Source of the DNA: Styela clava
Taxonomy: Eukaryota
Length of the DNA stretch: 64,000 nt
Assembly (NCBI RefSeq): GCF_964204865.1
Contig: NC_135256.1
Span: 14,694,001-14,758,000 of the forward strand
Reading direction: 5' to 3'
Below the pieces are notes generated by a model. It was not told the DNA's origin. It ran no database searches and saw only the letters and a list, made by a program, of their open reading frames with translations. How positions within the stretch are numbered: position 1 is the stretch's first letter; each line of letters starts with the position of its first letter. Made by a program: the position numbers and the translations under genes. Below, one piece after another: positions 28,604-54,019 of this stretch.

Positions 28604-29108
28604 ATACTAATGCCAATGTTCCAAATATTTTAGTTCTTAACGCGTTCTATTGATATCGTAGATGAGTGTGAGTTAAATGTATACCTTCCGGTATATTGAC
28701 GGTGCATTTGCGTATGTACATTGGTATTTTCATCTGACCTGAACTATGTGAAAGCCAATTCGCCAAAATTTTGCAAATGACATCGAATCTATATTAACAA
28801 ACAAAGGAAAAAGCAGGATTAATCTGATTGTGAGTAATTTTGAAACCGAAAATTTAAGCATGGCTGTGTTCTTTCAACCAGAGTCAGTCAAAAATAGGTC
28901 GAAGAGGAGCGTGCGTGTGTATATATCATAGTTGAGTACGAAATCTCCTCGTCACTTTGCATGTTTACAGTAAATATAGATTGACAAAGAACCAAATCAT
29001 AAATATGTCAACCGTATCGAAGCAGCAGCCCGTAGCATATGAACACGACAAGGTACTGTGATACTGTATTTGTCATATAAAGATGGAGTACCGATAAACA
29101 AATATAGG

Positions 29109-29287
29109 CAGTAGTGGGATTCAGCCGGTTCGCACCGGTTCTATAGAACCGTCTCAGGGAATTTTATGAGATCAGCGAACCGGTTAGCTTTACTGATTAC
29201 TGTCAATGTTCTGTTTGTAACAGAACCGGCTGAAAAATATGACTCTGTGATGGAACCGACTGACAAAAAATTTGAATCCCACCACTG
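29109..29287. mobile_element. hAT-type MITE (179 bp) between genes 1 and 2
   Basis: TIR cagtagtgggattca / tgaatcccaccactg. Degenerate 8-bp TSD aatatagg / aatataac. Internal gaaccgg repeats. Confidence 0.8.
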
Positions 29288-30358
29288 AATATAACCCTAT
29301 TCACGACGGCAAGATAACGAAAGTAAAGTATGATATTAAATAGTGTTGCCAGAAAAATACACGCTAACAAGAACGAACCCGCTGTAGGCCTACAGGAAAA
29401 GTAAGTTTCACAAATGATACCATAATGGTAAGCATATCTCAAGTTTCAAATTTGCTTCAGTTAACAGTTGCAGGTTACATATACATGCCACATGAAGTCT
29501 GAATCTTGACTCAACTCTACATTCTTTGCTGCTGAGACAGGGCCCCTTTTGACTATTCAGGTTGCGGACTGTTTTTGTCCCCAATATAATAAATTGTTAA
29601 TTTCCCTCATCATTATTGACAAGTTGTCCTCGAATTTCTATCATCATTTGTCTTTGATATTCATGTGAAACACTGTATTTGACTATGAAATTACTCCCAA
29701 CAAGAGGGAGTCCCATTTCATTGTGACAAAATGCACGGTGAAACATTCCGACGAGGCGTCAACCCAACAACTTAAAATGTAATCGCACTGGGACTGCCAG
29801 CATTTCACGGAGTTGTTGTTACGCTACCGGGTCGTGGCTCACGAAAAAGGAATGGTGAGCGTGGCAACAGTAGTATTGTCATATCCCAGCATGAATATTA
29901 AGGTAGCGGTTACTTTGATGGATGATGTGATAATCTATCCGTCTTTGAGCTCTGATGAAATCAATACGGGTGCATAATTCTGAATATAACCCTTGATAAG
30001 GTTCATATCAAATCTTAACCTTTGATAAACTATACAACTTTGAGTCATGTCGGTGTATTTCTTTTCAAAATCAGTAACAAAATGTTAAGAAATTTAAATT
30101 TAGTATTCAAAATATATATCATAAGATAATTATCAATGGCGTTATAGCAAAGTATATATATAATATATAAGTTATAAATTTTGTCTTTTCGGATCATCAC
30201 ATTTCATTGTTTTAAAACACACATTTCGCAGTACTCCACTTCTATGTAACCCTTTCCTCTTAGTGGGTCATTTTTGGCTGCCATAGCTCTTTTCGCCTCA
30301 GTGCTGTGTCGTCCTCTCGGTGAGCCTCATCACTTTTATTTTGTTTTCACTTACTCAT

Positions 30359-30625: not shown

Positions 30626-33600
30626 TTATTTGCCGTAACGTTTTCTCATCCTTAGAAGTTGATAATTGTAACCTACAAAAAGTGAGAGGTGGTTGTAGCA
30701 GGAATCGTTCATTCTTTATTTAGTTTGAATGCAATAACTTACGGTAACAAATTGGCGGTGGATTGGACCAGAGTCCAGTATATCGACATTTTGCAGCTTT
30801 GTATCCTTTCATTCTAAATCCTGTTGGACACGCAAAGTGAGTTATTTCTCCTTCGTGATAGTATTGTTTATATGGAGATGTCATCTTACATTTCACGGGC
30901 AGAACGGGAGCTTTACAATATGCTGGTTTTCCTAAAGTATATATAGATAACGTGAACAAAAACAAAGATTTAGGAGTAAAGTGAGGAAGGTTAAGTATTT
31001 AAATAATAAAAAAGTATTTAGTTGAGATTTTATATTGCATTCGGAGACATAAAATAATGCGTTAACCAAGGTGTTGAAATCACAATTAGCTTCATAGCTG
31101 TTGGACTGTTTGACTGAAATCCTAAATCTGAAGATATGTAATTTTTTTCTTGTTGCAGAATAAGAAGAACCTGCTCTGATTTGACAGTCTGGACTACGTA
31201 TTTTGAATTTAAGATAAAAAAAAAATATTTACAAAAGAGAGCAAGAGAGCAAGTTACATTTCTTATTTTAACATAATAATTCATAGCCGTTTTTACGACA
31301 TACAGGCAACTCACTATGGCAAGTTGGTGGTGCGTTGTCCCATTTCCCTTCATCGGAACAAGTTGCATATTTGTGTCCTTTCAGCTCATATCCTCTGGGG
31401 CAAACAAAGTTTATTTTGTGACCTGAGCTCCATGATTTTTGAAATCTTGGGAAATACGAACAATGCGGTGGAAATTTCGGAAGTAAGCATGTATAACCTA
31501 AAAAAATGAGTGAAAAATGAATGTGAATGAATGAATATTGCTGAAAACGCATTTCAAAAAGCTTAAATTTGTCAATCAATAAGTTAGATGTATTTGAAAT
31601 ACTTACGAATACAACGAGGTGTTGGATTGTCCCATTTTTCTCCTTCGATGCAAGTTGCATGGTCAGCTCCCACCAATGAAAAACCTTTTGGACATATGAA
31701 TTTTATTGTGTGCCCGATTTCGAAATGTTTACCAAACGGCGGTAAATATGAACCATACTTTGACATATGTGGTGTATGGCACATTTCCCCTGCAAAATAA
31801 AATATAGGAATAGTACATCAATTTTTCACTACGTTCAGAGTGGAATCCTTTTCAATCATCAGTTCAAATGAATATTAAGATTTTGAAACTTACGTCTTTT
31901 GCACACTGGTGGGCTGTTATCCCACAACCCACTGTCCTGACACGCAGCCTGAGTTTCTCCCTTCAAATCGAATCCGCTGGGACAGAAAAAAGTAATTTTG
32001 TCTCCAACGTTCCAGGATTGTTGACGAGCCGGGGCGTATCCACAAAACGGTGGTAACGTAGGTAGATAACATTGTGTTGCTGCAATGAATTTGCACGATT
32101 ATCTGATTTGAGGTACAGGTAAATAGCATTTGATTATATGTTCTGGATTGATGTTTATAACTCTTAAGACAGCGGGTTAGAGTGAGCATGAAAAGTGGTA
32201 TTAGTGGCAAATTTGGTGATTCGCGAAAAAGATTTTCCCGCAAAAATTTATTCATTTTGGAAATTCTTTTAGCAATATTTGTTGTAATCTCGATATATAA
32301 TTTTGTTGACTAATCGCAAAACCGCAGGAACAATCAGCAAGTTTTCGATAATAAAGTATTGGTCAGAGCCGCGCAGATGAAACGAGATCAAATACAGCAT
32401 AACTCCAAACCTACGTTTATAACAAGTTGGCGGTTGACTGCTCCAGATTCCACCTTCGTTGCACTTAGCGTACAAATCACCTTGCAACACGTATCCAAAC
32501 GGGCAATAAAACTTAATTTTTTGTCCAACATACCAAGAACGTTGATATCGAGGGGAGTAACTACAGTACTGCGGCATTGTTGGAACAGGACACAAGGTTG
32601 CTGAAACAAGTAGAAAACTTGATATTAGTTTTCATTGTGGTAATTAATCATAATTTACCTTAAAAAGCGCCACTGGTGACCAATATAAACGTACCTAGTA
32701 TCAAGAAATTCTACTTACGTGGTTCACAGGTAGGCGGCGAGTTGTCCCATAACCCATCTTCTAAGCATGTAGCATAACTATGACCTAGCATCTTGTATCC
32801 ATGGGGACAATGGAAATGAATTTTGTGTCCAACCATCCAGGAGGTTGCGTGAATTGGATAGTATGTACAATGTTCTGGCAGATTCGGAACAGCGCACGTT
32901 GGACCTGAAAATGGAGTACAATATTTGTGGCGATCATTCAAATAATAACAACTCTTTGTTGTTCATAAACTATACAGCGATAATAATGGGTAAGCGCTAA
33001 ATTGTGATTGAGGTACCGTGGTTTAGAGATCTATCTGGTTTGACTAGCCTAAGAGTCCTCTTATTTATAATATCCAATAGTTCAAAATCGCCAGTCTATG
33101 TGAATCTAAGATTAACTTATTGGTAACGATCCGTCTTGAGATTAAATAAGTCACAATAATTCTACTCACGTCTTTCGCAAACTGGGGGTGAGTTGTCCCA
33201 TTTTCCCTCAGCAGTACAGGTTGCAGAATTATGACCTTTTAATATATATCCGTCCGGACAAGAAAAACTAAGTCGTCCACCAACAGGTCGCCATTGTCGA
33301 CGAGTGTTCCCTAAGAATCCAGTACGCTTTGGAACATGTGGTACTCGGCACATTATTTCTGTAAACATATCAATTATAACGTTTGACAATGTTGGCGCTT
33401 TCCTACGCTAATATGTTATAGGGTGAACACCGCACATAACAAAGGGTTAGCGCGGAATGCTAGTGTGTAAAAGCGTAGGTTATCGAAATCAAATATCAAA
33501 TTATTTTCAGAACCAATTTTGCCAAAAAAGTGGTGGAATGTTTGAAGAAACCGGAATGCCACTCATTTAAAAAAAATTATGATCTTTGTATATCCAGCTC

Positions 33601-36600
33601 GAAAGAAAGTTTGTTTTATTTTTGATTAAAGTATTAGAAATTTATTTGACTGTGCCGCTTGGCTCTTATTGAACATATAAGGAATACAAGTACAGGTACG
33701 GTCTCTTTACGATATTAAGTATACTGGAAAAATGACCCGATTTATTACAATTTGAATAACTCTTGAAAATTGGAATCGTTTGAACAGTCACCCTCAGGCT
33801 ATGAAAGTATAGCTAAACATTTCTAATTCTTGTGAGTGGAATAAGTTAAATACACACATATAATATTCTTATTTAATATTACTAACTTCGTTCACAACTT
33901 GGTGGTGAATTATTCCACTGTCCATTTGCAAGGCACACTGCGGACCCATGCCCTTTCAACATGTAGTTATTTGGACATGAAAATAAGATGTTGCCTCCAA
34001 CTTTCCACGAATGCTGATACTTTGGTGAGTACATGCAATTTGTTGGCAGATTGGGAACGTGGCAAAAAACGGCTGAAACAGTGAGGTAAATACGAATATT
34101 ATAAAATGACAAATATATTTGTTGCTTATGAAACGTTTTTCAGATGCGAACCCAACATGAGCTCGACAATAAGAGTGTAAGTATGAAAACATCTCGATTA
34201 ACGTTAATGGAATTTTATTTTTCTGCACAGTTTTATTAATTTAACCATAAATTAGTAAATCCAGAAATAAAGATAGAGTTAGCTAATTCTTTAACAAAAC
34301 CAAAACTGAAACATTGCCAATTAGCGCAAGGTAGATTGCCAATGCTTGTGTATCAATTCCAAATATATTTTCGGGTATATATTATATCACACACGTATTG
34401 GCATTGCAAGTAATAAAAACATTAAAGTTATAGAAAATAGTTTTATGTCAAATATGTAAAACTTACGTCGTTCGCAAATAGGGGGTGACTGGGTCCATGT
34501 ACCGTCTTTTGCGCAAATTGAGTAGCTGTGACCAACTAATTTGTAACCAGTTGGACAATGAAAATGTATCATTCCTCCTGCATACCATGTTTTTTGATAT
34601 CTTGGCGAGTAACTGCAATACTTGGGCAGTGAAGGTAAGGAGCAAAATATTCCTAAAGAACATAACGACGTTAGATTAGAACAAAGCGCAATGGTCCAAT
34701 ATTCCCAAGCTGCGCTTTTGGTTTTTGACGATAGTAAAACCTATATTGAGAATGTGTAATATTTTATCACAAACTTGGTTTAAAAAATCGTCAAATGAAT
34801 AGCGCATTCTCTACTAGAAATGATTGGTTGTTAAAAACTGTCAAATGGGAAAGTTAAATGTATGTTAATTCAAGAATCATTGCATTATATAAATCAGTGG
34901 ACTTACTTTTTCTGCAGTCAGGAGCTTCCCGATTCCATTTACCTCCTAATAGGCATTTGGCAGATTTTACGCCAATTAGTTCATAGCCAGTCGGACAGTG
35001 AAAAGAAATTGTCTGACCAACACGCCAAGTCTTCTTGTGCACCGGTGAATATGACCAATCATGTTTCACACCGGGAGCGTAACAAACTTGTGCTGAATAT
35101 ACAAACAGATCTTATTAGTAACAAATTAAATATGATCGTACTGCAAGCTTTGCTGAATATTGAAATAAAACGTTATGGACATAATTTTTGCTCACATTGT
35201 TATAGCAAGAATGCCTAAACTGTTCTTGTTATTACATATGATTAAAAAACCATACGAAACCGGCATTAATCGCTTGGTCTAGACGCGTTTGGTTTCAGGT
35301 TATATGTATTATATTAATTTAGTTTGAATAACATTCCAAGTTGTCGCAGCTTAATTAAATTGTTTCGAAAACATTGACAAGTGTAATTTGTATGATAAAT
35401 TTTGTTTAAAATAATAATTATCTGTCTGTTTTTTTGGCCGAAAAGAATGCCAACTGCAGCTAAGAATGACTTTTGCGTACAGCAACATAATATATTTACT
35501 TGTTTGTTAACCGGTAATTTTTCAACAGCTTCCCTTTGCAATTTACTCTGAGGCTCTATGTAAATCACGACAATCATATTTTCTGTACGTTGTATGGTAT
35601 TTTATATGTATCATACCGTGGCATTTCTTGTCTTTCATGTAGTAACCAGAATTGCAAACACATCTATAACTTTGACCATCATTGATGCAGTCAGCGTTGT
35701 ACCCACATGGGTGATTTGCACAGGCGTTGATTGCTAGAATGAACAATTGTTAGTTTCAATATTAGAGCTGAGTAGGAGTATTGTATTGTGGATATGAAGG
35801 CTTTTGAGGGGGATATTATTATAACGTTTTCACTTACAAACGTATATTATACATGTAGCAATACAGTACTACGTCAGTATTTCGATGGAAGAACTAAATT
35901 ACAATGCCCAATTTATCATCTGGTCCAGTATTAATAAAAAAAAAATCCAAGGAACATTTTATGGCTCTCATCATATTATTATGACAATGGTCAAAGCATC
36001 TTCCACGAATAAGTTTATTCTACGGTTTGAGCTGAAGTCAAGTGAAAGTAAATTTATATCCATTATTTATGACACATAGAACATCGGAAATACCGATCGT
36101 AATTCGCTGTCAAAAATATAAATCTACAAATTAATTGTAAATATAAACAGAAAAAGGACCTCCTGAAGTATGCACACCAAGATGGCGCACAACCTAAACT
36201 CAGGTTGTGTACCAGGTTAGGGTTCAGGTTATGCGACATTTTGGTGCTCATACTTCAGGAGTACCCAGAAAAATATATTTGGTTTAAATAAACAGAAAAA
36301 AAAGCTTTTCGTACAAGGACGAACGTGATACTGGAATCTCGCTTACATTCTATTTGTGTTTTTGATTTATTTCTAAATTATGTTTAAACAGATTACATGT
36401 ATTTAGAGATTTTAGACTCGCGAGAAATGTTCAAAACAACTTAAAAGGAGTGGTAGAAAATCCGTGATTACGTTACTGTTTAAAAGATTCGGTTTAATTG
36501 AAAATATCAAAGTGGGACAAGCTTCTGATGGCTGAAAATATCTCAGCAATGAATCCAAAGAGTGGACATTAAAGTTTCGAATGTTGTGGGATCTCAGTGA

Positions 36601-37692
36601 TTTTAATTGGGGTTAGGATCTGAACTCTATGAGAATGTCTATGAGGTTAAACACATACCAAAGTGGCACTAAAATTTCACATTTCTGTATTAAATATATC
36701 ATTAAAACCTTTAAAGTACAACAATGATATCAAAATAATAAATATCACGGCAAAATAGTTTGTTGTGTATAGTTTAGTGTGAGTAGATACAAAAATTACA
36801 AAAAGTTTTGAATAGAGTTTAGTACATTAAATATTAAGTACAGGTACAATGTAAAAATAACAAAAATTGTTTATCAAAAGTTAACTACTACTGTTTTTAA
36901 TGAAAGAATATAGATAGATTTCTTACCGTGGCATACCGGAAGATTAGGTGGCATCCAATGACCACCGTAAACGCATTTTGCTTGTCTTGGCCCCCTTAGT
37001 TCAAATTCTGGCCTGCAAGAGAATTTCAATATTGTACCGATTGGGCATATTTCTTCTGGCATGTTGGCCGCGTAAAGTTCGTCTGGTAGGGTTGGAGACC
37101 GGCATCCTTGCTTCTTAGATACATAGTTGTCATAGTACGCTGAAACAAAACATTTTGTTATTGAAAAATGCGACAAATACGCTCTACAAGGGTATTTTGG
37201 TTTCTTTTTTCAGTAATCCTGACTCTTTGATTCATACTCAATATGAAATATGTTATTGTTTAAACTTTAAAGCATCGACGAAAGTAAAATATTATCATGG
37301 AATCATTAAATACTATACTAAATAAAAAGTGCTTTGGTAATTTGATTCACATAAATTAGGTTTTACCCAGTCAAAAATCTCGGAGTAGTGGGTGAATTTT
37401 TGTAATATGAATAACCAATTGCAAAGTTTATATCCCATATCTATATATATATCTCGATATATCTAATATTTTCACTGGCTAAATGGGGTGCTTTACCTCA
37501 TTGACAATTCATATAAATGAATAACATCAAATTAATCGAAAACTCAACTGAAATTATAATTAAGGTCGAATAAATATTTTTATTCTTACGAATTCATCCT
37601 AATTTGAAAATTTAATGCGAGAAATTCAACTCACCTGCAGTTAATCCGAATATACACAGCAGTGTGGAAATTAAAAGAGACACATTTCCCAT
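30626..37692 (-). CDS. Secreted protein: signal peptide + CCP + EGF + 10 CCP + basic tail (about 764 aa)
   Basis: Minus-strand exons, all phase 1: 37692-37635 (MGNVSLLISTLLCIFGLTA, signal peptide), 37139-36927 (CCP), 35733-35617 (EGF: CANHPCGYNADCINDGQSYRCVCNSGYYMKDKKC), CCPs 35092-34907, 34652-34467, 34072-33887, 33358-33170, 32904-32719, 32600-32415, 32079-31894, 31789-31607, 31497-31315, 30931-30743, and last coding exon 30672-30626 (RYNYQLLRMRKRYGK*). Total 2295 nt, in frame. All CCPs have the canonical W-x4/5-P-x-C. Confidence 0.9.
36156..36265. mobile_element. Palindromic MITE (~110 bp), Merlin-like termini
   Basis: Long TIR ctcctgaagtatg.gcaccaa.atg, GG...CC ends, 8-bp TSD cagaaaaa. 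Same family as 4095-4205 in the opposite orientation. Confidence 0.75.
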
Positions 37693-38030: not shown

Positions 38031-38271
38031 GGTACTCACGTAGTATGTGAACCAAGATAGGGGACACCGGAACGTAGTATGTGTACCAGGTAGGGTTAGG
38101 CCATGGCCATAATTTTATTCTAATTTTTCTTATTTTAGTTCTTTTACGAGTATGGGGACTAGCCAAGTGACTCCCGTAGTATCTATACCTGAAATTATGG
38201 CCTAACTTCAACCTGGCACACACACTGCATGGCGATGTCCGTCATCTTGGTTCACATACTACGGGAGTACC
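38031..38271. mobile_element. Related Merlin-like MITE (241 bp) upstream of gene 2
   Basis: TIR ggtactcacgtagtatgtgaaccaagat / atcttggttcacatactacgggagtacc. Imperfect TSD agaaatag / gaaaatag. gtagggttagg core. Confidence 0.75.
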
Positions 38272-41200
38272 GAAAATAGTCCTCAGCACACGTTCGTCAA
38301 CAGATCATTTAAATTTAAAATAAAATAAAAGAGTAACCTCATGGCAACAGTCAGGATAAATGATTTAAAAAAACAATAGATTTTTGCGAATTGAAATTTT
38401 AGTCAATGATTTTGGAAAATTGGTCATCTCACGCGATTCGAATTATCAAAAATTGACATTAGTTTTAGCGATTTCGTATATCTGGAATTACAAAATGTTT
38501 TGGACATGACGCAATTCTTGAACAATCAAAACTCCATGTCTTTAATATATATGATTTATACATGATTTGGCTCAGTTTTATGTCTGGAATATCATGGAAG
38601 TTTTTTAATCAAGTAAAAATTGAAAGACCATATTAAGTCCGTAATTGCAGGTCATTAATTAACCTAATTGAAGGTTGGACAACGTAGTTTACGTCATATT
38701 GAACGATTGTGGGTGACATATAATTTTCATCATTTGTCACGAAGTTATGGCATAATTGTGGAATAATTTTTTGTCGAAATATCTAATTAACTTCAAGTGC
38801 TGGCCACAGATAAAATCGACTATTTCTATTTTCTCATGCACGACGTAACCTTGTAGTCAGACAGTTTCATGAATAATAATCTTCCCGAACGAAACTATCC
38901 TCTGCATGGCACGGTGTCTAGAATTTTAATTGTCATATATTTTCACGATTGTGGTCAAATATTTATTTATTTTACCAAACATAACTGCTTATTATTTTCT
39001 ATTTTATAAAATTTTTATAAGCAAAGTTGCTTGTTACTTCAGTTGCCAGAAGAAAATCTTCAACCAGCCAACAGTTTAATTCTTCAATTCAAAAAAGCAT
39101 TCAACTCAACTGATCAGAGTCATTTATTATCAAGTTTTAATAATATTGTTTTATCTGACAGAGCTGTTGACGTGCTAACTTTACACAATCTATTAATACA
39201 ATCCCTTGATCCTCTCCGAACAAACCAGAAAGATATTAATTTGAAACGGTTGAGCATACATAGGAGTTGAAGTGTCAATAAATTGCATCAACGTTGACGG
39301 AAACCAAATATTTTATTTCTTTCCAAATCCGTGCGAAGCCTGTATCACGTCACTTACATGGATCAGTTCAATACTTGACTCCTACTCGGGTTAAAACAGT
39401 ATAACCCAAAATGTATGGAAATTTGATTCTATCTTGATATTGTATCTTTAGCCCATCATATTTGATCATAAAATAAACTCACAAACAAAGCGATAAAATG
39501 AAACCAAGCTGATATTGCACTTCATAAATATTTTAAACTCATGAAATTCAGTTTGCCCGTTTTTTTGAAGGTTGCTATAGATTTTTCCGAAGAAATATCG
39601 TTTATCGATAATTATAAGAAGGGAAATGATCACAAATTGACTTACACAATATGTTCTCATACGAAGGATGAAAGTTAATTTCACAAATTGATAATAGGTC
39701 AATAATGGATATAATCATTAATCAATTTGACGTAGATTTTTTGTAATTTTTAGAAAATATTTCCTATAACAATTTTCCGGTAACTCGAGGTGGAAAACGA
39801 GCGATGAAAACGATCAAATAAAACAAATTAGTTATTTCATTATTCAAACCCGACAATATAGACACGTCAAATCTACGGAATAGCAGTGTGTTTAATGATG
39901 GCTTATTTAGCCAGATATGTATCGTACAATTAATTATTTTCCCCCTCAATCTATTGATTCAATGTGTTGTCGGACAAAAAAAAAGAATGACGAAATGAAT
40001 TTATCTAATGTGAGCATATTTGTATTGCCCGAAACTTTGATCAAATGAAATTTTTTACCTCAATCAAAATAGTTTAATGTAATTGATTAAATTCAACCAC
40101 TTCTCAACTTATCTAAATTGAATTCATTTCATGAAGTTATATATATTTATTCATCTTCCAAGGATAATTTGATGACTATGTTTATTGCAGCGTATCCATC
40201 TTGTGCAAAGAACGTCAAACGCTTTCAAAAACAAAATTCACGAAAAAGATTTTCTGACTAAAGGTAGTTTCAGTGAACTCAATATTTCACGTTATTTTTG
40301 CAAACAATGATGTGTTTACCATAATAATATATCCAAATGTAATCCACTTTAAATACATTTTGTCACGAAATTGTTCTGCAAAATTACCTTGTTATCTCCA
40401 ATTACAACATTAATTATGGGTATGTTCGAAAACTTTGTTTGTGTTCATTTTGGAGGCTCATTCAAGTTTTATGCACAAAGTAAGAAAATTAGTTTTGTGC
40501 AATCAAAACTTGTACAATCCAGAAATGCAACGTAAACCTTATTGAGAGGCTGGATTTATGCGAACAGAGTCCATAGGCCAGAAATAGCGATACTTTTTCA
40601 ATGGATGGGTCAAGCATGAAGGGCATACGTATTTGAGCAATACATGCATCTTGTTGCTGCATCTTTTTCTCAAGTTTTGTAATCTTTGAAATGAGCCGGA
40701 CCGAAGCCTGTTATCGAAAAGTTTGGAATTAGAATCTTATACGGATGCGATATTTCAAATTGCACTTACCTGATCAGGCGATTTCGGTTACTCAATTTTA
40801 TGAAATTCAAGTGCGGAAACCCGGATTCGCACACATATGCATTATCGAAAAACGTTTATATTGCTACAGCAAATAATTTCATGATTTCAAAAGATATGGG
40901 ACGGAGTTACACTATGAGAAAATTCAAATTTTTGATCAGTTTCCAACTGCTTTAAAGGCATTCTATGCGAGAAAAATACACTGCAGAATATCATCTTGTT
41001 TGTTGTACCCCTCAAAACAGGCCTGCACAGCTTGAAACAATGTGAGAAGGCTGCAAAAAAATATCGTTCGCGGGCCATAAGCTGTTTTTTTTATCATGTT
41101 TTTGTTTTTAAATAAAACATTATTATATTATATCTATGATTTATTTATTTTGTGTGTAGAGAATGGGATGATATGTATTTACACCAAAAGAAATTAAAAA

Positions 41201-44000
41201 TACAAATTATCAAATTTTTCGAAATTATTGTCCACTATCCATTAGTGATTGTCAAATGACCTATACACCATTTTTTTGTTCTTAAGTTCATATATATATT
41301 TACATTTAACACGGCCGGCCCAAGCTTAAGTATTCAGAATGGGACGCTCCCAAATAAAATTTGAATCAAGGAAGAACAATAATTTGTGAAGTTTGAATAG
41401 CTATTACAAATATCTTTGAAATTACAAAACAAAAATGCATCACAACATTAGACCCATATAGCCTAACACAACCTAAGTTTGAAATAGCTTATATAATATG
41501 CACAAATAAAACTATCATTATAAATATTTGCCTTCAAATTTTGATAACCTAATCCTGCTTTCAAACAGATATATATATTAAAACAAAACAGATATAACAT
41601 GTTCAAACAAAACTATCATTATAAATATTTGCTTCCAAATTTTGATCAGTTAATCCTTTTCTCAAACAGATGCAACAAATTTGATGTTTAGCATGAACAG
41701 GAGTTTTGTTTTGAATATCAACATTTAAGTGATGAAACATTAATAAAAGAACCCAGCCAAGAAAGTGTTGTTAAATAATCCAATTAGAAGAACTGCTACA
41801 ACAATATGTTGCAACACAAACCTGGTTTATATTACACCAAACATATTTAAGATTCACATCGACTTTCTTCATACAATTAACCCGAATCAAATGAATTTTC
41901 GATGGCGTTTCGAGATTGCCACGATGAAAGATTTAAAGATATATAAGGCATGGTTTCTTATAAAATTTAAAAATAAATAGTTTTCAAGCACCAAGTAGCC
42001 TATTTCAAATATCTTGAAGATCATATTGTCTGAAGTTTAACATAAAACAGACATACTGATAGACCATGAATACATGAAGAAGGCGATTTTTCAGTAAACA
42101 ATGCTGCAAAATAATATTTAAAAACGAAAGTGTGGAGGCAGCATCAGTTGCTATTTTGCCGTAGATGCAGATTAGGTTCCTCCGAGTTGCAGAGTTGTAA
42201 GCGGCACTAATTAGAGCTATTAAAAAATATACAGAGGAAAATTTTGCTTGCTAGCGTGTGACAATCTAAATATTCGACAAAACTGGGATTTAGAGTTATG
42301 ATCTTCACTTACCCATTCCCAACATTTCTGACCGTTTAACAACATTCTCCAACCAATTCGTTCTAGACTAAATCTATTTGCGGAAAAGGAGTATATCTTT
42401 TTTGGAAAACATGGCGAAATTTCTAATATTGTTCTTTGTAATTTGTATCTGCCTTTTGCAATCCTCTTTTGGACAAGAAGGAATCTGACTTTGTTCGCAG
42501 GTAAAACGAAATATTCCAAATACTACTACCAGTACTATACCCCTGAACAAATTAATGACGCTACTAATTGCATACAATGATAATCGCTTAAATTCCTCAA
42601 AAATAATTGTAATTGCGAAACCTTCTAACGTTGTTATGTCGATTAGAAATTTTATGAATACAAACTGGAAACTTGTCTACAAAGTGCCATTACGATTGAT
42701 ATATGCAAGTGTTCATAGAACTAAAATAAAATGAATACATCATTGCAACAATTATGCTAAAACGATATGAGGTTATTTAAATATAGAATATATCAATTTA
42801 GGTGTACCAGATGCATCAATATTGTATGAACCGACAAGACTACTCAACTGGAACAAACCAAGTTGCAAAACGAGGACAAATCGGCAAAGCTGGGCCCAGG
42901 GGATCTCCTGGAATAGTGAACTACGGAGTCATTAATTCGACTATTTCAAAACAATTTGAAGGTGACTATTGACAAACTTCTTCTGTCACTTTGTCCGTTT
43001 TGTAACTTCTTAATATGTCAAATTCTAATTTGGATTCTGGATCTATCACTGAGCTTTTTACAAAATCAAATGCATAGCGGTTTATTTTATTTGTTAAAAA
43101 TCGGTAATAGTTGTAATTTCATACTTTAGCCACAAAAATATACATAACTTTTTTCCTGCTGTATCAACCGTCTAACAACACCTAGTGTTAGTTGTTGTTA
43201 CTCACTTATCAAAATTATTTCCGAATATGTCTTTTTGAATCAATGCAAATTTACCACATCTATAACTTCGCAGAGCCCTATTAGTGAGTCACATTTTTGG
43301 AAGAATATCGTGTGATATAACATGAAGCTATCTTTGTTTTATAGTTCTTGAAAATGGGCTAGAAACGAAATTTGCAGAAAATTTTCAAGCTTTGGAGAGG
43401 ACGAACTCAAATCGTGATGATATAGAACATTTACAGAGAGGTTTATTTTAAATAATTTTTGCAATATTTGATGATTTTTATGATCATAATTCGCCTACCA
43501 CGCAAATATTGAATAAGAAGTCAATATCACCATGTTTCAAACAGAATTAATGAACTGCACTCGAAGAATCAGCAATCTAGAAGAGATGTTTACGTGGAAC
43601 AGAGCTAGCAACAATTTTTTCTACAAATTATTTCACGATAAAGTAACTTATGAAACTGCTAGATCGAACTGCAAGAGAATGGGAGCGAATCTTGCATCTG
43701 CGGGAGTCCGCGATTCTACTGTTCGAAGGTAAGAAAGTCTTAAAATTTCAAATATTGGACTCGAAGGAGTTGTATTTGAGAGCGATATGTATCAAACAAT
43801 TACTAAAACATTCCTGTACAATTATAAATGAACGGAAGTGTTGAAAACATTAAACAAATTTTTTGGTCTTCCTCCAATTGCAAATGTTCGAATTATTTTA
43901 TTTTAAAGCGTATTCATGTTTATCCCACTCGACGTCACACTTCCTCGTTATCAGCCTTTTTTTAAATTTATCTATAAAAAGTCAAGGGTGGGATTTACTG

Positions 44001-44510
44001 TGTAGAGAATAGCCTGGTCTAACTGGTACTACCGTGTTTCCCCGAAAAAAAAGGACAGTGTCTTATTCCAATTTTCTTTCGAAAAATAACACTAGGGCTT
44101 ATTTTCGGGGGATGTCTTATAATTTTATCAAAAACAAAATTAGAAAGTACTGAATTAGGAGATTAAAAATAGGAAAACCGATATTTATTTACTAGAATGA
44201 TACGTTTTCCTCTTTCACACGTTTCAGATTAATCATTTAAAATGTATGGAGAGATTTCTTGCTCTCGACCAGGTAAAAAAAATTGCGTTATCGACTAGGT
44301 CTTATTTTAATGGGAGGGCTTATATTAAAATCTTTCTTGAAATTCAGACTAGGTCTTATTTTTAGGATAGGTCTTATTTTCGGGGAAACACGGTACTAGT
44401 CTTCCCTGTCTATTCTTCTACGTTTTTCGAGTGATATCCGGAACATCCTCAGCGCGCCGCGTAAAGCCCGTCCGTCTACGGCGTTTGAGCTCTTTTATTT
44501 TTGTTCTACA
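44001..44510. mobile_element. Small solo-LTR-like element interrupted by the Tc2-like MITE
   Basis: Termini TGTAGA...TCTACA with 4-bp direct repeat ACTG at 43997-44000 and 44511-44514. Only about 146 bp once the MITE is removed. Confidence 0.45.
44032..44393. mobile_element. Tc1/mariner-superfamily (Tc2/pogo-like) MITE
   Basis: TIR ccgtgtttccccgaaaa / ttttcggggaaacacgg flanked by TA on both sides; internal gtcttattt repeats; absent from the copy B intron. Confidence 0.85.
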
Positions 44511-46746
44511 ACTGATGCGGACCGATTGTGTTGTGTTTGGCTACCCATGCCGTGTATTTTACTGAGTGTAAAGAATAATATAAGATTTTATCATTATTTA
44601 TTGGACACTATTTTTACTATTGGAATGCCCTAACGGCAGAAAGTGCGCTCCATCAGTACCGACCATGGCATGATCGGTTCGTATTGCGTTAAAAATCGTC
44701 AATATCGAACGCTATTACAGTGCCGAGAAAGCGGTTTCAGAAAAGGCGTATCTGCAAGAAGTGTGGCGTCGGGTACCTTATTACCGTGCTTAAACCCCTT
44801 CGATTTTCAACGCTTAGGGAATTTGAAAGACAATTTGTATCAGAACAATCTTTGAACAATCAGTGAAATCATGCTTGCAAATGCAGTAAAACTTAAGAGA
44901 AAAATGTTTGCGAGTAGTTGATAATTTTGCGCGTCTCTCTGTGCGGATGTACGTTTGTCTTTAATGCCGCGGAGGTCACTGGAAACATGTCAAGAATAAA
45001 TACCGTTTGAGCAAAACGTCCTTGATTACTGAAACTTTTGAGTACATTCAAACCCAAACAGAAGTTCAAGTGTAAACCAATAAGTTATCTTCATTTCCGT
45101 AGACATATTGGGAAATCCATGTGTACCTTATAATGTTTGATGTAAAAGTTTGTATTTTTGGTATAATTATCTTCCAATTCTAGTCAACTGATTTCGTTGA
45201 TCAAATCTGGAGAAAGTGACGTCTGGATCGGTTTGGATGATCTTCAGCGGGAGGGTAACTTCATTTGGGCAGATGGCGTCGTCTCTACTAAAGCAAATAC
45301 TGATTGGTCTACAAACCAACCAGACAATTATAAAAATGAAGAATATTGTGGAATTTTTTCTTTTTGGATGGGGTGGAAATTGAATGATGAGAATATCTAT
45401 GTGAAAAACAAATTTAAAAGTTGCAAACGGGATATGGAAATGAAAACCTTTTCAACTTTTTTTCATACTCCCACAAAAGAGAGTGAGTGTCCACACAAGA
45501 ACAATTACATTTTTACTATATATACCTATTTATATGACTCCGTGACGTTATCGATGTATATATAACTGATAACAAAATCTTTTGATTAATATGAGTCACC
45601 ACTTGGATAGAGAAAATCTAGTGGACATTGGCTAGAAAGTTTTAATATGAACATAACTAAAATGACTGAAAAATATTTTTGCAAAATAATACACTGACGT
45701 TTTGAATATTAAAACATTTTGTTTTCTCATGATAAACTATTTCAATCATAGCGATGTTATTCAATGATCTGTCAAATGAAATATGAAAGTTACGTTTACG
45801 CCTTGTTGGCAAATTTATTCAAGATGACTGAGATGAAAAGAAATAACTCGTACGTGCTTTCAATGTTAGTGGTCTTGATGCGTTATTATAAGGTATAAAA
45901 GGAAAAGATATCTTAATTAAGTTGTGTAAAAAGCAGAAAATTGTTCTTTCAATTTTTTCAGATAGAATTAGAGTTTACTGGACTTATTGGGATTTTTTGC
46001 TTGCAGATGTGACCAGGAAATAAAGGAAACGTGTTTTACAGATAATATATTGTATGATGTAAAATATTAGACATTTTTGTTGCTTGATGCAATTGATTGA
46101 ATTCAACCACTTTCCAACTTATTCTAAATTGATTTCATTTCATGAAATTTTATTTCCCATTTCCATCTGTATCGTTGTCTTTAAAAGTCTAATTTGAGGA
46201 CTATGTTTGTTGAAGCGTATCTATCTTGTGCAACGACCACCAAACGTCTCCAAGAAATAAAATTCACGAAAAAGGTTTGCTGGACAAAGTTAATTTTAGT
46301 GAACTCAATATGTCACGTTATCTTAGACAACAATGACGTGTTTATCATAAAAATATAGCTAAATGTAATCCACTTTTAACATTTTGTCACGAGATTGTTC
46401 TGCAAAATTATCTTGTTATCTCCAATTACAACATTAATTATGGGTATGTTCGAAAAATTTAACTTTGTTTGTGTTCAATTTGGAGGCTAATTCAAGTTTT
46501 ATGCACAAAGTAAGAAAATTAGTTTTGTGCAATCAAAACGTGTGCAATCGAGAAATGCAACGTGAGCCTTGTTAAAAGGCTGTATTTTGGCTATGATAGC
46601 ATCTAGGCCAGAAATACAGATACGTTTTTAATGAATGGGTCAAACATTATAGGTGTATTATAGAAAAGTAGACTGTGGATCATACGTATTTAGGCAATAT
46701 CTGCATCTTTTCCTCAAGTCTTGCAATCCCTAAAATTGGCCAGGAC

Positions 46747-47858: not shown

Positions 47859-49439
47859 GCCAGGACCAAAACCCGTTATCGAATAGTTTGGGATTCGAAT
47901 CCTACAGATGCAATATTTTGTGTTGTCCTCACCCGATCAGACGATTTTGGTTACTTAATTCAATTAAATTCATGTGCGGAAACTCGGATTCGCACACATA
48001 TGTATTATCGAAAAACGTTATCATGCTACGACAAATGTTTTCATGATATAAAAGGGGTTTGGACGGAGTTGCACTCTGTGAGAATCCCATATATGGGATG
48101 AATATGAGGGGATATCGATTCAAACCAAAAGAACTGAGAAAAAAATAATTTATATTTTTTTCAATTTGAAATTATTGACCACTTTCCATTAATGATTATC
48201 AAATTAACTATACACCATTTTTTAATTCTTTAGTCCGCGCTCTCTAATAAAATTTGAATCAGGGAAGAACATTTAATTCTGAAGTTTTGAATCGCTATTT
48301 AGAAATCAATCCATTACAAAAAGACTGGTAGGTGGTAACATGCTAAAACAAAATTTTATCATAAATATTTGCTTCTAAATTTTGATCAGTTAATCCTCCT
48401 TTCAAACAGATATAGCAAATTTGATGTTTACCATGAACAAGAGTGGGAATTGTTTTGAATGGGTGTTTTCAGCAGTTAGGTGATAAAACAACGTTAACAG
48501 AACCCAGACAAAAAGGTTTTTAAATAATTTAATTCAAAGAAATGTTACAACAATATGCTGTAACACAAATCTGGTTTATATTAAACCAAACATTTTTAAG
48601 ATTCACATCGATTTTCTTCATACAAGTAACCCGCATAGAATGAATTTTCAATGGCGTTTCGAGATTGCCACGATGAGAGATTCAAAGATATATACGGCAT
48701 GGTTTCTTATAAAAGTTAAAACCAAATAGTTTTTAAGCACCAAGTATTTCAAATATCTTGAAGGTGATGTTGTCTGAAGTTTAACATAAAACAGACATAC
48801 TGATAGACCATGAATACATGAAGAAGGCGATTTTCCAGTAAACAATGCTGCAAAATAATATTTAAAAACGAAAGTGTGGAGGCAGCATCAGTTGCTATTT
48901 TGCCGTAGATGCAGATTAGGTTCGTCCGAGTTGCAGAGTTGTAAGCGGCACTAATTAGAGCTATTAAAAAATATACAGAGGAAAATTTTGCTTGCTAGCG
49001 TGTGACAATCTAAATATTTGACAAAACTGGGATTTAGAGTTATGATCTTCACTTACCCATTTTAAACATTTCTGACCGTTTAACAACATTCTCCAACCAA
49101 TTCGTTCTAGACTAAATCTATTTGCGGAAAAGGAGTATATCTTTTTTGGAAATTCATAACTTGGCCTCACTAATTTTGTAAATATCGTTGCCTTCTTAAA
49201 TGTTTTATCAACCGTGTCACTGTGTTAAATGATGAGGAAACACGCAGTTAAGGATAACAAAACGTTGTAGAACTAAATGTTCCTTTAAAGCGATGTGGTT
49301 GAATTTTATTCATTCATTTTGTGTTACTCATTAAGCTGTAGTTTTTGTTATATTTAATTATTTAAAAGATTGTTTTTGATACTCCACGTGTATCTTTGTT
49401 TCTTTTTATTGGAAGACTAAAGGTATTTCCTCTGAAAAC

Positions 49440-52418
49440 ATGGCGAAATTACTAAAATTGTTCTTTGTGATTTGTATCTGCCTTTTGCAATCCTCTTTTG
49501 GACAAGAAGGAGTCGGACTTTGTTCGCAGGTAAAACAAAATACCCAATACTACTACCAGTACTATACTCCTGACCAAATCAATGACGCTACTAATTGAAT
49601 ACAATGATAATCGCTAAATTTCCTCGAAATAATTGTAATTGCGAAATCTTCTAACGTTATTATGTCCATTAGAAATATTATGAATGAAAATTGGAAACTC
49701 ATCTACAAAGTGCAATTGAAGCCAGTATGGTTGATATATGCAAGTGTTCATAGAACTAAAATAAAATAAATACTTCATTGCAACAATTATGCTAAAACAA
49801 TATGAGGTTATATAAATATAGAATATATCAATTTAGGTGTACCAGATGCATCAATATTGTATGAACCGCCAAGACTACTCAACTGGAACTAGCCAAGTTG
49901 CAAAACGAGGACGAGTCGGCAAAGCTGGGCCCAGGGGACCTCCTGGAATTGTAAACTACGGAATCATTAATTCGACTATTTCAAATCAATTTGAAGGTGA
50001 CTATTGACAAACTTCTATGAAAAAATATTTCTCTGTCAGTTTTGTAATTTTTTAATGTGTCGAATGCTGATTTGGATTCTGGATCTATCACTAAGAATTT
50101 TGCAAAATCAAATGCATAGCGGTTTATTCTAGTTGTTAAAAATGGGTACTATTTGTAACTTCATACTTCAGCAAAAAACATACATAACTTATTCGCGATG
50201 TTCAACATCTAGTGCTACTTATTGTTACTCACTGAGCAAAATCACTTCCGATTCTTAAAGCAAAATCAGCAATCTATACCGCACAACCCTATTAGCAGGG
50301 TTACCATTTAACCAGAGCCAAAAATAAGCACGGGTGTCAAAAGGTTATTTGGGGGGGGGGGGGGGGTACTTAACAACGCAGAAACGCAGAATAAAAATGA
50401 GAGAAAAATTATGCACGAGTTTCTTCCGCACTCCCAATTTTGTTATTTGTTTTATTTATTTTAGTAGAAGTCGCTTCGAACAAGGTTGTATGCAGCCCTG
50501 AAATCGCAAAATGCCACATAAAGTTTGCCGACCACTGCTCTAATGTCTTCATACTTTGGTTACCCCCATTGCTTCTTGCAAAATTTTTGTGTTTTGTGGT
50601 AGTGTTGTGGGCACTAATTGCTGTTTTCCCCGTCGCCTCTAGGTTGATATCGCTGTCGCAATGGCAGCAGTGAGCATAGCTCTACCTTTTCGACTTTGTT
50701 TAAAGTTAGCAAATTCCTTTTCAAATTCGAAATGAACTGATGTTTACATCTACTCATTTTCTAAATTATGGTTTGTCCCTAAAAACAGTCGCCCATGCCT
50801 TGCAACTAGCAACAACTATTGTAACTGCTGTGTCACAGTTTGCCTGGAAATACCGCAATCCTTACAGTGAACATAAACGGTTCGCGCTGAGAGCGAGCTT
50901 GTGGCGAGAGCAAACTTCTAGATTTGTACGCAAAACAAGGACGAGTTATCCATGTTTCTAAGACAAAATAAGCACACAACTCAAATATAAGCAATTTTCT
51001 TAGAAATAAGCACATCGTTACTTTATAAGATGTAAGCTAGAAAATAAGCACAAATCTTAGAAATAAGTACGATATGGTAACCCTGCCTATTAGTTAGTCA
51101 TATTTTTTGGAAGAATATCGTTTGATATAACATGAAGCTATCTTTGTTCTACAGTTCTTGAAAATGGGCTAGAAACGAAATTTGCAGAAAATTTTCAAGC
51201 TTTGGAGAGGACGAACTCAAATCGTGATGATATAGAACATTTACAGAGAGGTTTATTTTAAATAATTTTCGTAATATTTGATGATTTTTATGATCATAAT
51301 TCGCCTACCACTCAAATATTTAATAAAAAGTCAATATCACCATGTTTCAAACAGAATTAATGAACTGCACTCGAAGAATCAGCAATCTAGAAGAGATGTT
51401 TACGTGGAACAAAGCTAGCAACAATTTTTTCTACAAATTATTTCACGAAGAAGTAACTTATGAAACTGCTAGATCGAACTGCAAGAGAATGGGAGCGAAT
51501 CTTGCATCTGCGGGAGTCCGCGATTCCACTGTACGAAGGTAAGAAAGTCTAATGATTTTAAATAGTAGACACGAAGGAGCAAAACTAAACATTGTACTCT
51601 AACATGAGATGAATATGCTTCAAAACTAAAAAGTTAGAAAGACCCATAATTTCATATATTGGATTCGAAGGAGTTCTATTTGAGAGCAATATTTATCAAA
51701 CAACACCCCACTTGAACCCCTCATATTTTCAACGCTTGAGGAATTTAAAAGACAGTTTTTATCAGAACAATCTTCGAACAATTCGTCAAAGCATGCTCGC
51801 GATCGCAGTAAAAGTTAGGAAAATCTTAAGAGAAGAATGTTTGCGAGTAGTTAGTTGATAATTTCGCGCGTCTGTATGCGCGAATGTACGTTTGTCTTTA
51901 ACGCCGCGAAATAACTTTTAAGCAAAACGTTGTCCTTGATTACTATAAATTTGAGTACATTCGAACTCAAACTGAAGTTTAGGTGTAAACAAATAGATTC
52001 TCTTCATTTCTGGAGAAATAATTTAGAAATCCAGGGGATCTGTATAATTCTGTATGAAAGTTTGATGTAGAAGTTTGTATGTTTTGTATAATTAGTTGAG
52101 AGGCGCTGAATATTTGGTTTTGTATTTAACGATGAACCAAACTTAAGCGCATTATCTTTTAATTTTAGTCAACTGATTTCGTTGATAAAATCTGGAGGAA
52201 GTAACGTTTGGATCGGTTTGAATGATCTTCAGCGGGAGGGTAACTTCATTTGGGCAGATGGTGTCGTCTCTACTAAAGCAAATACAGATTGGTATACAAA
52301 CCAACCCGACAATTCTAGAAATGAAGATTGTGGACATTTTTCCCCTGGGTATGGATGGAAATTGAATGATGCTCCATGTAGCGCTCTGATGAACTATCTA
52401 TGTGAAAAACAAATTTGA
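49440..52418 (+). CDS. Secreted collectin-like C-type lectin (copy B), 259 aa: signal peptide, 5 Gly-X-Y triplets, coiled neck, QPD-type CRD
   Basis: Exons 49440-49529, 49837-49996, 51155-51250, 51355-51538, 52169-52418 = 780 nt in frame. MAKLLKLFFVICICLLQSSFG signal; GRV-GKA-GPR-GPP-GIV; CRD motifs ARSNC..MGANLAS, WIGLND, W..NQPDN, EDC, WKLNDAPC, YLCEK. Confidence 0.9.
50296..51085. mobile_element. Non-autonomous hAT element (790 bp) in intron 2 of lectin B
   Basis: Perfect TIR cagggttaccat / atggtaaccctg. 8-bp TSD cctattag (50288-50295 and 51086-51093). Subterminal aaataagca repeats. Empty site cctattag at 43277-43284 in copy A. Confidence 0.93.
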
Positions 52419-54019
52419 AATTTGAAAAAATTAAGGATATGGAAAGACGTTTTACATTTTCCAACACAAGAGAGTGAGTGTTCACACACGGACAATTACA
52501 TTTTTACTAAATATTCTTGTATATATGACCCATAATGTTATCGACGTATATATATATAATTAACAACAAAATGATTTGGTTAATATATGTCAGTCGTGAT
52601 AAAAAAATCCAGTTTAGAAGATCGATATCGGTTAGCAAACTCTGTCAAACTTAAGAAAAAATGGGGATTGTTTTATTCCAGCATAATTAAAATTATTGAA
52701 AATGATTTTTGCAAAATAATATATTGCTAGTATAAATAATAAAACCTTTTGCTTCCTCATTATAAACTATTTTAATAATAGTAATGGCCTATCAAACGAA
52801 TTATAAAAGTAGCGTTTACATGTAGTTTCTGACCAATTTATTCAAGATAACTAATACGAAAAGAAATAAACCGTACGCCGTTACTTGTTTTCAATGTTGG
52901 TGGTCTGAATGCGTTATTGTGTATAAAATAAAAAAGACGTATTTCAGATATGCCGTGTAAAACGAAGCAAATATTTCTTTAAGTGTGTCCAGATAGACGT
53001 TAGTTCTAATATAGATATATTCAACTCATGTTATAAGTCAGATAGAGTGCGGGATATTGATTGGGGTAATATGGACATGAAAACGATGATTACTGACTAC
53101 TGCATATCGTCAAAGACTTTTGTTGGTATTTTTTAAAATTTTGCTCTGCATTTTAAGTTTTAGCTTATTCCAAAGCTTCAAGTATAAATGATTCCATTCA
53201 TGCCTTTGATTGAATAGGACACATATGCTCAAGGGCAATACATACGAAAATCTCAAAGTGAGTTAAAGTATACAAGAAATATACAAATTGTGATATTTCC
53301 GACAAAAAAATATGAATATTCTCATAAATTATTTAATTTATCAATCTGGCGGTAACCCACCTGATCGCTGAGAACGTGAATGGTGATGTGATATTCGTGC
53401 AATTGTTGAACATTAGAAAAACCATGGGTAACACAAAGGGTAGAGAGAGTTATTAAATATAAAAAAGATATTGATTAAATAATATGCAACCGAGAGGGAG
53501 TTTCATCTTTAATATCAGAAATATAAGAGTGATAGGTCCAATAATAACAAAAGCTTCCCAGTCACAACCGCAATAACAATAATTAGTGCAACGTTCCAAA
53601 GGTCCACTTTATGCTTCCACGAATGTTCGTCAAGTGAGGTATTACAAAATCCATCTATTGTTTACTGAAATTCCAAGCACATGACCTGGCTTGGTTGGCA
53701 TCTGTGCGACGAAGGAAGTGATCTATGGGTCCATTTCGTGTACAAACGCACACTCAGCTCAACAATCTACTACAATCACGAATGCTTGTAAGGAAAGGTA
53801 ATGGCATTTGCAAAAAGTTTTATGGGCATCATGCCTAAATAGTTCCTGTTGATATCTGCTCTACAAAAAAGTGAATTATACTACGTGCAACTAATTATAT
53901 ATGGATAATTTGAAGAAAAATTACTCATTATGGCAATGCACTTAGTCATTATTATACATCAACCACCACTCACAACGACTCAGTTCAAACCAAATAGCTG
54001 GGCTGACTGGTGTCGAATG

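What the first reader, a model, noticed from the sequence alone, without database searches (positions are those of the whole stretch)
30743..34652. Gene 2 CCPs carry a recurrent fifth cysteine in place of the conserved NG-turn glycine
Seen: 7 of these 9 modules have PKYC, PTNC, PEHC, PQYC, PPFC, PPHC or PVKC, where CCPs normally have PxNG; one module retains SKYG. The N-terminal CCP also has an extra Cys (EICPIG). Established: CCPs have 4 Cys paired I-III and II-IV. Inference: regularly spaced free thiols for inter-chain polymerisation, metal binding with nearby His, or redox protection of catechols. A buried free Cys next to the II-IV disulfide is the alternative.
Basis: partly seen in the sequence, partly recalled or inferred. 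Interest (0 to 1): 0.7.

Follow-up and report, generated by a model that had tools for sequence, protein, structure and literature searches.

The report
Sea-squirt sushi array with fifth cysteine
A spliced sea-squirt gene encodes a predicted secreted chain of eleven sushi (complement-control) modules, seven of which carry an extra cysteine at the same rare spot; that cysteine likely points inward against the module's second disulfide bond as packing inherited from one duplicated exon, rather than acting as an exposed cross-linking thiol.

Summary
The nine CCP exons at 30743-34652 carry Cys at CysI+9 in 7 of 9 (7 of 10 in the whole array). The neighbouring gene has it in 0 of 47 modules, and other proteins in 5 of 1861. 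The gene is spliced and single-copy: signal-like N-terminus, CCP, EGF, ten CCPs, basic tail (764 aa, pI 9.1). No orthologue was found.

The site substitutes like a buried core position (2% D/E/K, against 25-37% at the other conserved glycines). It covaries with residues around the CysII-CysIV bond. Its conservation here matches other core columns. His neighbours are not conserved, and Tyr content does not track the extra Cys.

A latent thiol-disulfide exchange triad stays open (0.2). Burial is inferred from sequence statistics: the folding tool returned no coordinates. Lone Cys at this site is also kept in one module of three unnamed long Sushi arrays, so the site is not unique, but an array of them was found nowhere else.

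The parts
37635..37692 (-). Exon 1: ATG and hydrophobic signal-like peptide (by inspection; no signal predictor run)
   Evidence: model equals P0002
36927..37139 (-). CCP0, with an extra Cys (EICPIG, residue 51) at the core aromatic column; Leu at CysI+9
   Evidence: contig piece laid on it
35617..35733 (-). EGF-like module, six Cys
34907..35092 (-). CCP1, four Cys; Trp (TGG) at CysI+9
34467..34652 (-). CCP2, five Cys (PKYC; codon 34617-34615, residue 204)
33887..34072 (-). CCP3, five Cys (PTNC; codon 34037-34035, residue 266)
33170..33358 (-). CCP4, four Cys; Thr (ACT) at CysI+9
32719..32904 (-). CCP5, five Cys (PEHC; codon 32869-32867, residue 391)
32415..32600 (-). CCP6, five Cys (PQYC; codon 32565-32563, residue 453); the module that was folded
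31894..32079 (-). CCP7, five Cys (PPFC; codon 32044-32042, residue 515)
31607..31789 (-). CCP8, four Cys; keeps Gly (SKYG, GGT)
31315..31497 (-). CCP9, five Cys (PPHC; codon 31462-31460, residue 638)
30743..30931 (-). CCP10, five Cys (PVKC; codon 30890-30888, residue 701)
30626..30672 (-). Last coding exon: short basic tail and stop; contigs run on to about 30093 (3' UTR). A form that reads through the last intron also exists (P0001; one X2 contig)
   Evidence: joint 30670/30741

Best explanation
Seven of the ten array modules carry a fifth cysteine at CysI+9, the start of strand beta2, where it likely faces inward across from CysII and stays a buried, unpaired thiol packed against the CysII-CysIV disulfide. 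It likely arose once (Gly to Cys is one base) in a founder exon whose pocket was also remodelled (Pro after CysII in all ten modules). Phase-1 exon duplication then amplified it, and it is likely kept as a core packing residue, like the Ala, Val and Ser found at this site elsewhere. The protein would then be an ordinary secreted, strongly basic CCP rod, likely binding polyanions or matrix, and not cross-linked through these cysteines while folded. Shown: the residue, gene structure, splicing, rarity, CCP fold. Inferred: burial, unpaired state, single origin, function.
For: Fold: AlphaFold2 of CCP6 gives a normal CCP (pLDDT 95.3, strand E13-15 right after Cys12), and Foldseek matches C2, factor B and CD46 CCPs at query TM about 0.75-0.83. 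Burial: among 421 non-Gly/Pro residues at this column in 1802 complete foreign modules, D/E/K make up 2.1% and hydrophobics 66%. That is like core columns 14, 22 and 24 (0.9-3.3%) and unlike the other four conserved glycines (24.5-36.8%). The commonest substitutes are A 135, V 53, S 44 of 1861. Position: coupling analysis (1788 modules, 1140 pairs) ranks 13-31 9th and 11-33 24th, which puts 12 opposite CysII (32). The best partners of 12 are 33, 36 and 57 (ranks 27, 29, 39), which flank CysII and CysIV. Retention needs no thiol role: Cys is 7/10, core columns are 7-10/10, and nearly all exposed columns are at most 5/10. Three of ten modules do without it (W, T, G). Pro at CysII+1 is 10/10 here and is enriched in foreign modules lacking the Gly (10 of 408 against 6 of 1373). 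No partner Cys exists in adjacent modules, here or beside the lone-Cys modules of P0021, P0023, P0026 and P0027.
Against: No coordinates were returned, so solvent access and S-S distances were not measured. The coupling register is not clean: 14-30 ranks 685th, 13-33 and 15-31 also rank 34th and 36th, and in 20 subsamples the 12-33 rank ranged from 18 to 355. Cys has survived in modules only 36-55% identical although Gly and Ser are one base away, and unpaired Cys is generally costly in secreted proteins (own knowledge). It is also conserved in one homologous module of three separate long Sushi arrays, which may point to a use. The extra Cys total eight, an even number. The four foreign lone-Cys modules have Arg or His, not Pro, after CysII. 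The module tree cannot order gains and losses.
Confidence: 0.6

Rival explanations
1. Latent thiol-disulfide exchange triad. The buried fifth Cys attacks the adjacent II-IV bond during folding, under shear or oxidation, or on partial unfolding. It frees CysIV (or CysII) at the module's C-terminal end, which then cross-links chains or captures partners.
For: The inferred position opposite CysII is what this needs. Cys is kept in 7 modules at 36-55% identity and in one module of three other long arrays. Buried Cys triads isomerise in titin Ig domains (PMC5766482, passages), and shear-triggered shuffling is described for von Willebrand factor (PMC5575259, passages).
Against: Conservation is no higher than that of ordinary core residues, and three modules lack it. 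Unlike titin there is no length gain: the CysI-to-CysIV path is 14 steps both before and after a 5-II isomerisation, and 10 after 5-IV. No expression site, force context or biochemical data exist.
Confidence: 0.2
2. Regularly spaced exposed thiols that polymerise chains directly.
For: Spacing is about 62 residues. An unpaired N-terminal Cys dimerises vaccinia VCP (PMC7912105, passage). CCP modules occur in tunicate matrix proteins (PMC3390340, passages).
Against: The column is intolerant of D/E/K and couples to core residues. The known dimerising Cys residues lie outside the module core: at the N-terminus in VCP, and just N-terminal to SCR1 in PAPP-A (PMC9579167, passages).
Confidence: 0.1
3. 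Cys/His metal-binding sites repeated along the rod.
For: His is 4.4% against 0.6% in the neighbouring gene's protein; CCP5 has three His near the site.
Against: 4 of 7 five-Cys modules have no His at 12 nearby positions, and CCP6 and CCP7 have none at all. The commonest His (column 41) is in 4 of 7 Cys modules and 1 of 3 non-Cys modules, and does not couple to site 12 (rank 443 of 1140). P0008 has 5.0% His without the Cys.
Confidence: 0.05
4. Thiol antioxidant that protects catechols (DOPA/TOPA) in an adhesive or tunic, as recalled for mussel mfp-6.
For: The protein is basic (net +44, pI 9.1) and has 7.0% Tyr.
Against: The thiol looks buried. Another ascidian CCP array without the fifth Cys has 12.5% Tyr. 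No paper or tissue data link the gene to adhesion.
Confidence: 0.05

Closest known systems
CCP / Sushi / SCR module (Pfam PF00084), e.g. complement C2, factor B, CD46, factor H
   Same: All 11 modules pass the Pfam cut-off, have the four canonical Cys and the Trp, and share the fold.
   Different: A fifth Cys replaces the consensus Gly at CysI+9 in 7 modules, and Pro follows CysII in all ten array modules. Both are rare elsewhere (5 of 1861; 30 of 1795, 14 of them in one near-identical array).
Unnamed long Sushi arrays P0021, P0023, P0026 and amphioxus CR1-like P0027
   Same: A lone Cys at the same site (PPNC, VPHC) with no partner in neighbouring modules; conserved in one homologous module of three proteins.
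   Different: One module out of about 40 in each, against 7 of 10 here; not orthologues.
Six-Cys CCPs (selectin-type, name recalled)
   Same: Extra Cys in a CCP.
   Different: Their extras come at columns 16 and 28 (44 and 54 of 1802 modules), presumably as a third disulfide; here there is one extra at column 12.
Vaccinia VCP and PAPP-A dimerising cysteines
   Same: An unpaired Cys in a CCP-containing secreted protein.
   Different: A single Cys outside the module core that is shown to dimerise; here it is repeated and likely inside the core.
Titin Ig CysB-CysF-CysG triad
   Same: A third buried Cys beside a disulfide, repeated along a tandem array (PMC5766482).
   Different: Different fold and an intracellular protein. 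Isomerisation there lengthens the domain; here the I-III bond prevents any gain. Exchange is untested here.
SVEP1/polydom (the automatic database name of this protein)
   Same: Sushi and EGF modules.
   Different: 764 aa, with no vWA or pentraxin domain; the name is a similarity label only.

Membership tests
CCP/Sushi module | About 60 residues, four invariant Cys and Trp, profile match | tested here: met
   11 of 11 modules pass the PF00084 cut-off, 29-38 bits against 20.7
CCP/Sushi module | Beta-sandwich CCP fold | tested here: met
   CCP6 model pLDDT 95.3; Foldseek probability 1.0 to solved CCPs
CCP/Sushi module | Disulfides I-III and II-IV (PMC4206863 section 10; PMC6683126) | not testable with these tools
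   No coordinates returned; pairing assumed from the family. The fifth Cys could alter it.
SVEP1/polydom | vWA and pentraxin domains besides EGF and many CCPs (as in its name) | tested here: not met
   Pfam on P0002 finds Sushi and EGF-type families (plus an HRM cross-hit inside the CCPs), but no vWA or pentraxin
Regulators of complement activation (factor H/CR1/C4BP-like) | Ordered motif pattern M5-M3-M1-M2(-M4) over three CCPs (PMC6683126) | not tested
   Motif matrices were not in the passages read
Six-Cys (selectin-type) CCP | A pair of extra Cys forming a third disulfide | tested here: not met
   One extra Cys per module, at another column
Thiol-disulfide exchange triad (titin-like) | Third Cys within a few angstroms of the disulfide | tested here: inconclusive
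   Coupling and substitution pattern place it beside II-IV; no distance measured
Thiol-disulfide exchange triad (titin-like) | Isomerisation lengthens the load path | tested here: not met
   14 steps before, 14 or 10 after
Cys/His metal site | Conserved His next to the Cys | tested here: not met
   Absent in 4 of 7 modules

The most novel reading that the evidence does not exclude
A secreted CCP array with a built-in cysteine triad in seven modules. A cryptic thiol opposite CysII attacks the II-IV bond on shear, oxidation or partial unfolding and frees CysIV on the load-bearing C-terminal strand. The basic rod thereby becomes a multivalent, triggerable cross-linker for tunic, mucus net or wound plug. 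This would be the first sushi-based latent disulfide-shuffling polymer.
Probability: 0.2. Interest if true: 0.7.

Novelty: new variant of a known kind. Interest (0 to 1): 0.38.

Why it matters
CCP modules are treated as strictly four-Cys units with a near-invariant Gly beside the second disulfide. A natural array with seven Cys modules and three internal non-Cys controls (Gly, Thr, Trp) is a ready test bed for two questions: how a secreted disulfide fold tolerates an odd cysteine, and whether such a thiol can reshuffle the II-IV bond. If it is only packing, it is a lineage-specific curiosity. If it exchanges, it adds a redox- or shear-triggered cross-linking mechanism to one of the commonest extracellular modules.

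Tried and rejected
Homodimer prediction for residues 380-565 (two copies): no answer, score 0.00, alignment not used; no evidence either way.

The full-length AlphaFold2 model folds the array modules (mean pLDDT 74.9) but has pTM 0.30, and residues 1-48 and 97-141 are under 50. It therefore says nothing on module arrangement or on the CCP0 extra Cys. Neither model came with coordinates.

Orthologue searches found only alleles or annotations of this gene: three word-index searches (1, 10 and 37 hits), a full HMMER scan of which only the best 150 of 10,679 hits were seen, ranked by summed score and so biased to long proteins, and the Atlas (best 0.88, generic Sushi clusters). Short five-Cys relatives could be missed.

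P0111 (Val at the site in 14 of 14 modules) was considered as a control for retention and dropped because its modules are 95-100% identical. It was also left out's counts.

The module tree groups gene-2 modules (90/85, bootstrap unsettled, one gene-1 module joined on a long branch) but cannot tell whether CCP8's Gly is ancestral or a reversion.

No listed holder is on record as RNA, and four other RNA-guessed runs held next to none of the words: no evidence on expression.

Literature: ten searches found no description of five-Cys CCPs or of these accessions; subscription papers are not covered. The per-residue accessibility of the consensus SCR lies in a figure and supplements of PMC4206863 that could not be seen and may bear on the burial claim. 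PMC2806952 passages gave nothing on the site. PMC9953650 mentions an SVEP1-named gene in the anterior endostyle, but it cannot be tied to this gene.
Full report
WHAT IS THERE. The window lies on contig C8 of a 377-Mb animal genome. The neighbouring plus-strand gene corresponds to P0013 (2 of 3 tested 20-residue stretches match exactly), a RefSeq record labelled Styela clava on a contig of the same length as that of the gene-2 record; the organism is therefore taken to be that ascidian. Gene 2 runs on the minus strand from 37692 to 30626 in 14 coding exons joined by phase-1 introns: a signal-like N-terminus (by inspection), CCP0, one EGF, ten one-exon CCPs and a short basic tail. The model equals stored protein P0002 (XP_077970552.1, 764 aa). 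Contigs of four runs from one study (RNA by guess) skip the introns: 11 joints from 30670/30741 to 35092/35617 have CT..AC ends on the plus strand, and a contig piece lies on the CCP0 exon. The mature protein has pI 9.1, net charge about +44 and 58 Cys, that is 44 + 6 + 8 extra.

THE OBSERVATION. It holds exactly. At CysI+9 the nine modules in the given range have Cys in seven, Thr in CCP4 and Gly in CCP8; CCP1, just outside, has Trp. CCP0's extra Cys sits at a different column. Controls: 0 of 47 modules of gene 1 have Cys there, and 45 have Gly. Among 4270 domain hits in the 194 proteins held, 1861 modules of the 191 proteins other than this gene's three records could be scored at the site: G 1413, A 135, V 53, S 44 and C 5 (the set includes gene 1's protein). 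Three exon searches of the genome found no close paralogue (only the best 150 candidates were scored each time). A DNA pattern for the five-Cys spacing gave 17 matches, of which the only CCPs are these seven. Two other database alleles keep every fifth Cys they cover. Of 16 listed contig variants in coding sequence, 12 are synonymous and none hits these codons.

WHERE THE CYSTEINE POINTS. AlphaFold2 on CCP6 with 57 window modules gives a normal CCP (pLDDT 95.3), with Cys12 directly before strand 13-15. Foldseek matches complement C2, factor B, CD46 and factor H modules. No coordinates were delivered, so I used sequence statistics instead.

First, burial. In 1802 complete foreign modules, the 421 non-Gly/Pro residues at this column are 2.1% D/E/K and 66% hydrophobic. 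Core columns 22, 14 and 24 have 0.9-3.3% D/E/K; the four other conserved glycines have 24.5-36.8%. So this is not a surface turn glycine but an inward-facing site with little room.

Second, neighbours. Mean-field coupling on 1788 modules (P0111 dropped, invariant columns removed, 1140 pairs) recovers expected strand pairs (27-45, 30-44, 38-57, 47-53). It ranks 13-31 9th and 11-33 24th, a register that sets residue 12 opposite CysII (32). The best partners of 12 are 33, 36 and 57, that is CysII+1, the aromatic of G-Y, and the Pro two before CysIV. In 20 subsamples the top three partners were 33 (15 times), 40 (13), 36 (12) and 57 (11). Against this, 14-30 ranks only 685th, 13-33 and 15-31 also score, and subsample ranks scatter widely. 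The neighbourhood of the II-IV bond is therefore better supported than the exact register. The beta2-beta4 sheet and the I-III/II-IV pairing are as described in PMC4206863 (section 10 read) and PMC6683126 (passages).

WHY IT RECURS. The five-Cys modules are 36-55% identical, so this is not a recent amplification. But across the ten array modules Cys is 7/10, core and proline columns are 7-10/10, and exposed columns are at most 5/10 apart from Asn54. A buried residue fixed in a founder exon would show just this pattern. All ten modules also have Pro after CysII. In foreign modules that Pro occurs in 10 of 408 without the Gly against 6 of 1373 with it (modules not independent), which suggests a jointly remodelled pocket. 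The Trp and Gly codons are one base from Cys; the Thr codon is two. The tree groups the gene-2 modules with moderate support but does not order the events. A lone Cys at the same site is conserved in one homologous module of three unnamed arrays of 2300-2550 aa, and occurs in one module of an amphioxus protein, each without a partner nearby. The fifth foreign case has a second extra Cys three residues earlier. So the substitution is tolerated in other lineages, but no other array dominated by it appeared among 137 records with five or more complete modules, three of which are this gene.

MECHANISM AND RIVALS. Most likely (0.6) the fifth Cys is a buried unpaired thiol packed on the II-IV disulfide, and the protein is a basic, secreted CCP rod whose ligand is probably polyanionic (inference from charge only).

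The same geometry allows a latent exchange triad (0.2). Buried triads isomerise in titin (PMC5766482, passages), and shear-triggered shuffling is cited for von Willebrand factor (PMC5575259, passages). Here, however, the I-III bond fixes the load path at 14 steps whether or not II-IV is broken (10 if Cys5 bonds CysIV). Any function would therefore be release of a thiol, not elasticity.

Direct polymerisation by exposed thiols (0.1) conflicts with the burial signal. The documented dimerising Cys of VCP (PMC7912105, passage) and PAPP-A (PMC9579167, passages) lie outside the module core.

A metal site (0.05) lacks conserved His. Catechol protection (0.05) has no support beyond 7.0% Tyr, which is exceeded by a related four-Cys array; the mfp-6 analogy is recalled. 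CCP domains do occur in tunicate matrix proteins (PMC3390340, passages), but nothing locates this protein.

COMPARISON AND NOVELTY. The modules are true CCPs. The protein is not SVEP1 despite its automatic name, and RCA membership was not tested. No orthologue was found. Ten literature searches found no account of five-Cys CCPs or of these accessions; subscription journals and the supplements of PMC4206863 were not seen. The scan's earlier notes held nothing on this place or sequence. Verdict: a real, apparently undescribed variant of a known module, seen so far in one gene of one species, and most simply explained by core packing. Interest 0.38; the latent-exchange reading has probability 0.2 and would merit 0.7.

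Noticed in passing
window 1-28500 (+), gene 1 = P0013: Very long one-module-per-exon CCP array (3714 aa, 57 Sushi hits, two C-terminal somatomedin B domains). Most modules have Phe in place of the conserved Trp (43 of 46 aligned). It is acidic (pI 5.4, net about -63) and lies tail-to-tail with the basic gene 2 (net about +44).
   Followed up: partly
window 42800-45560, 49830-52420, 57100-57950 (+): Two or three collectin-like genes: a short Gly-X-Y stretch in the first two, a neck-like exon and C-type lectin exons (Lectin_C hits at 45167-45562 and 57696-57950). The first copy's last lectin exon diverges from the second's after the WKLND motif and may be truncated.
   Followed up: partly
window 40534-43593, 48483-51403, 62576-64000: Segmental duplications at 81-98% identity, with spacings of about 6.7-7.8 kb and 22 kb, covering the collectin-like genes and their upstream DNA.
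   Followed up: partly
window 30672-30743 (-): The last 70-nt intron is spliced in one contig and read through in another and in P0001, giving two different short C-terminal tails.
   Followed up: partly
window 37049 area (-), CCP0 residue 51: The eighth extra Cys replaces the core Tyr/Phe/Trp before the x-x-G; Cys at that column occurs in 2 of 1802 foreign modules. This part of the full-length model was low-confidence.
   Followed up: partly
window 58472-59005 (+) and 59549-61538 (-): A zf-RVT retrotransposon fragment and long stop-free frames without a Pfam hit (59549-60364 tested), likely a mobile element remnant.
   Followed up: no
window about 29100-29290, 36156-36267, 38060-38275: Short high-copy repeats in and beside gene 2 introns; thousands-fold contig depth.
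   Followed up: no
proteins P0021, P0023, P0026: Unnamed 2300-2550-aa pure Sushi arrays sharing one conserved five-Cys module (PPNC) at a homologous position.
   Followed up: partly
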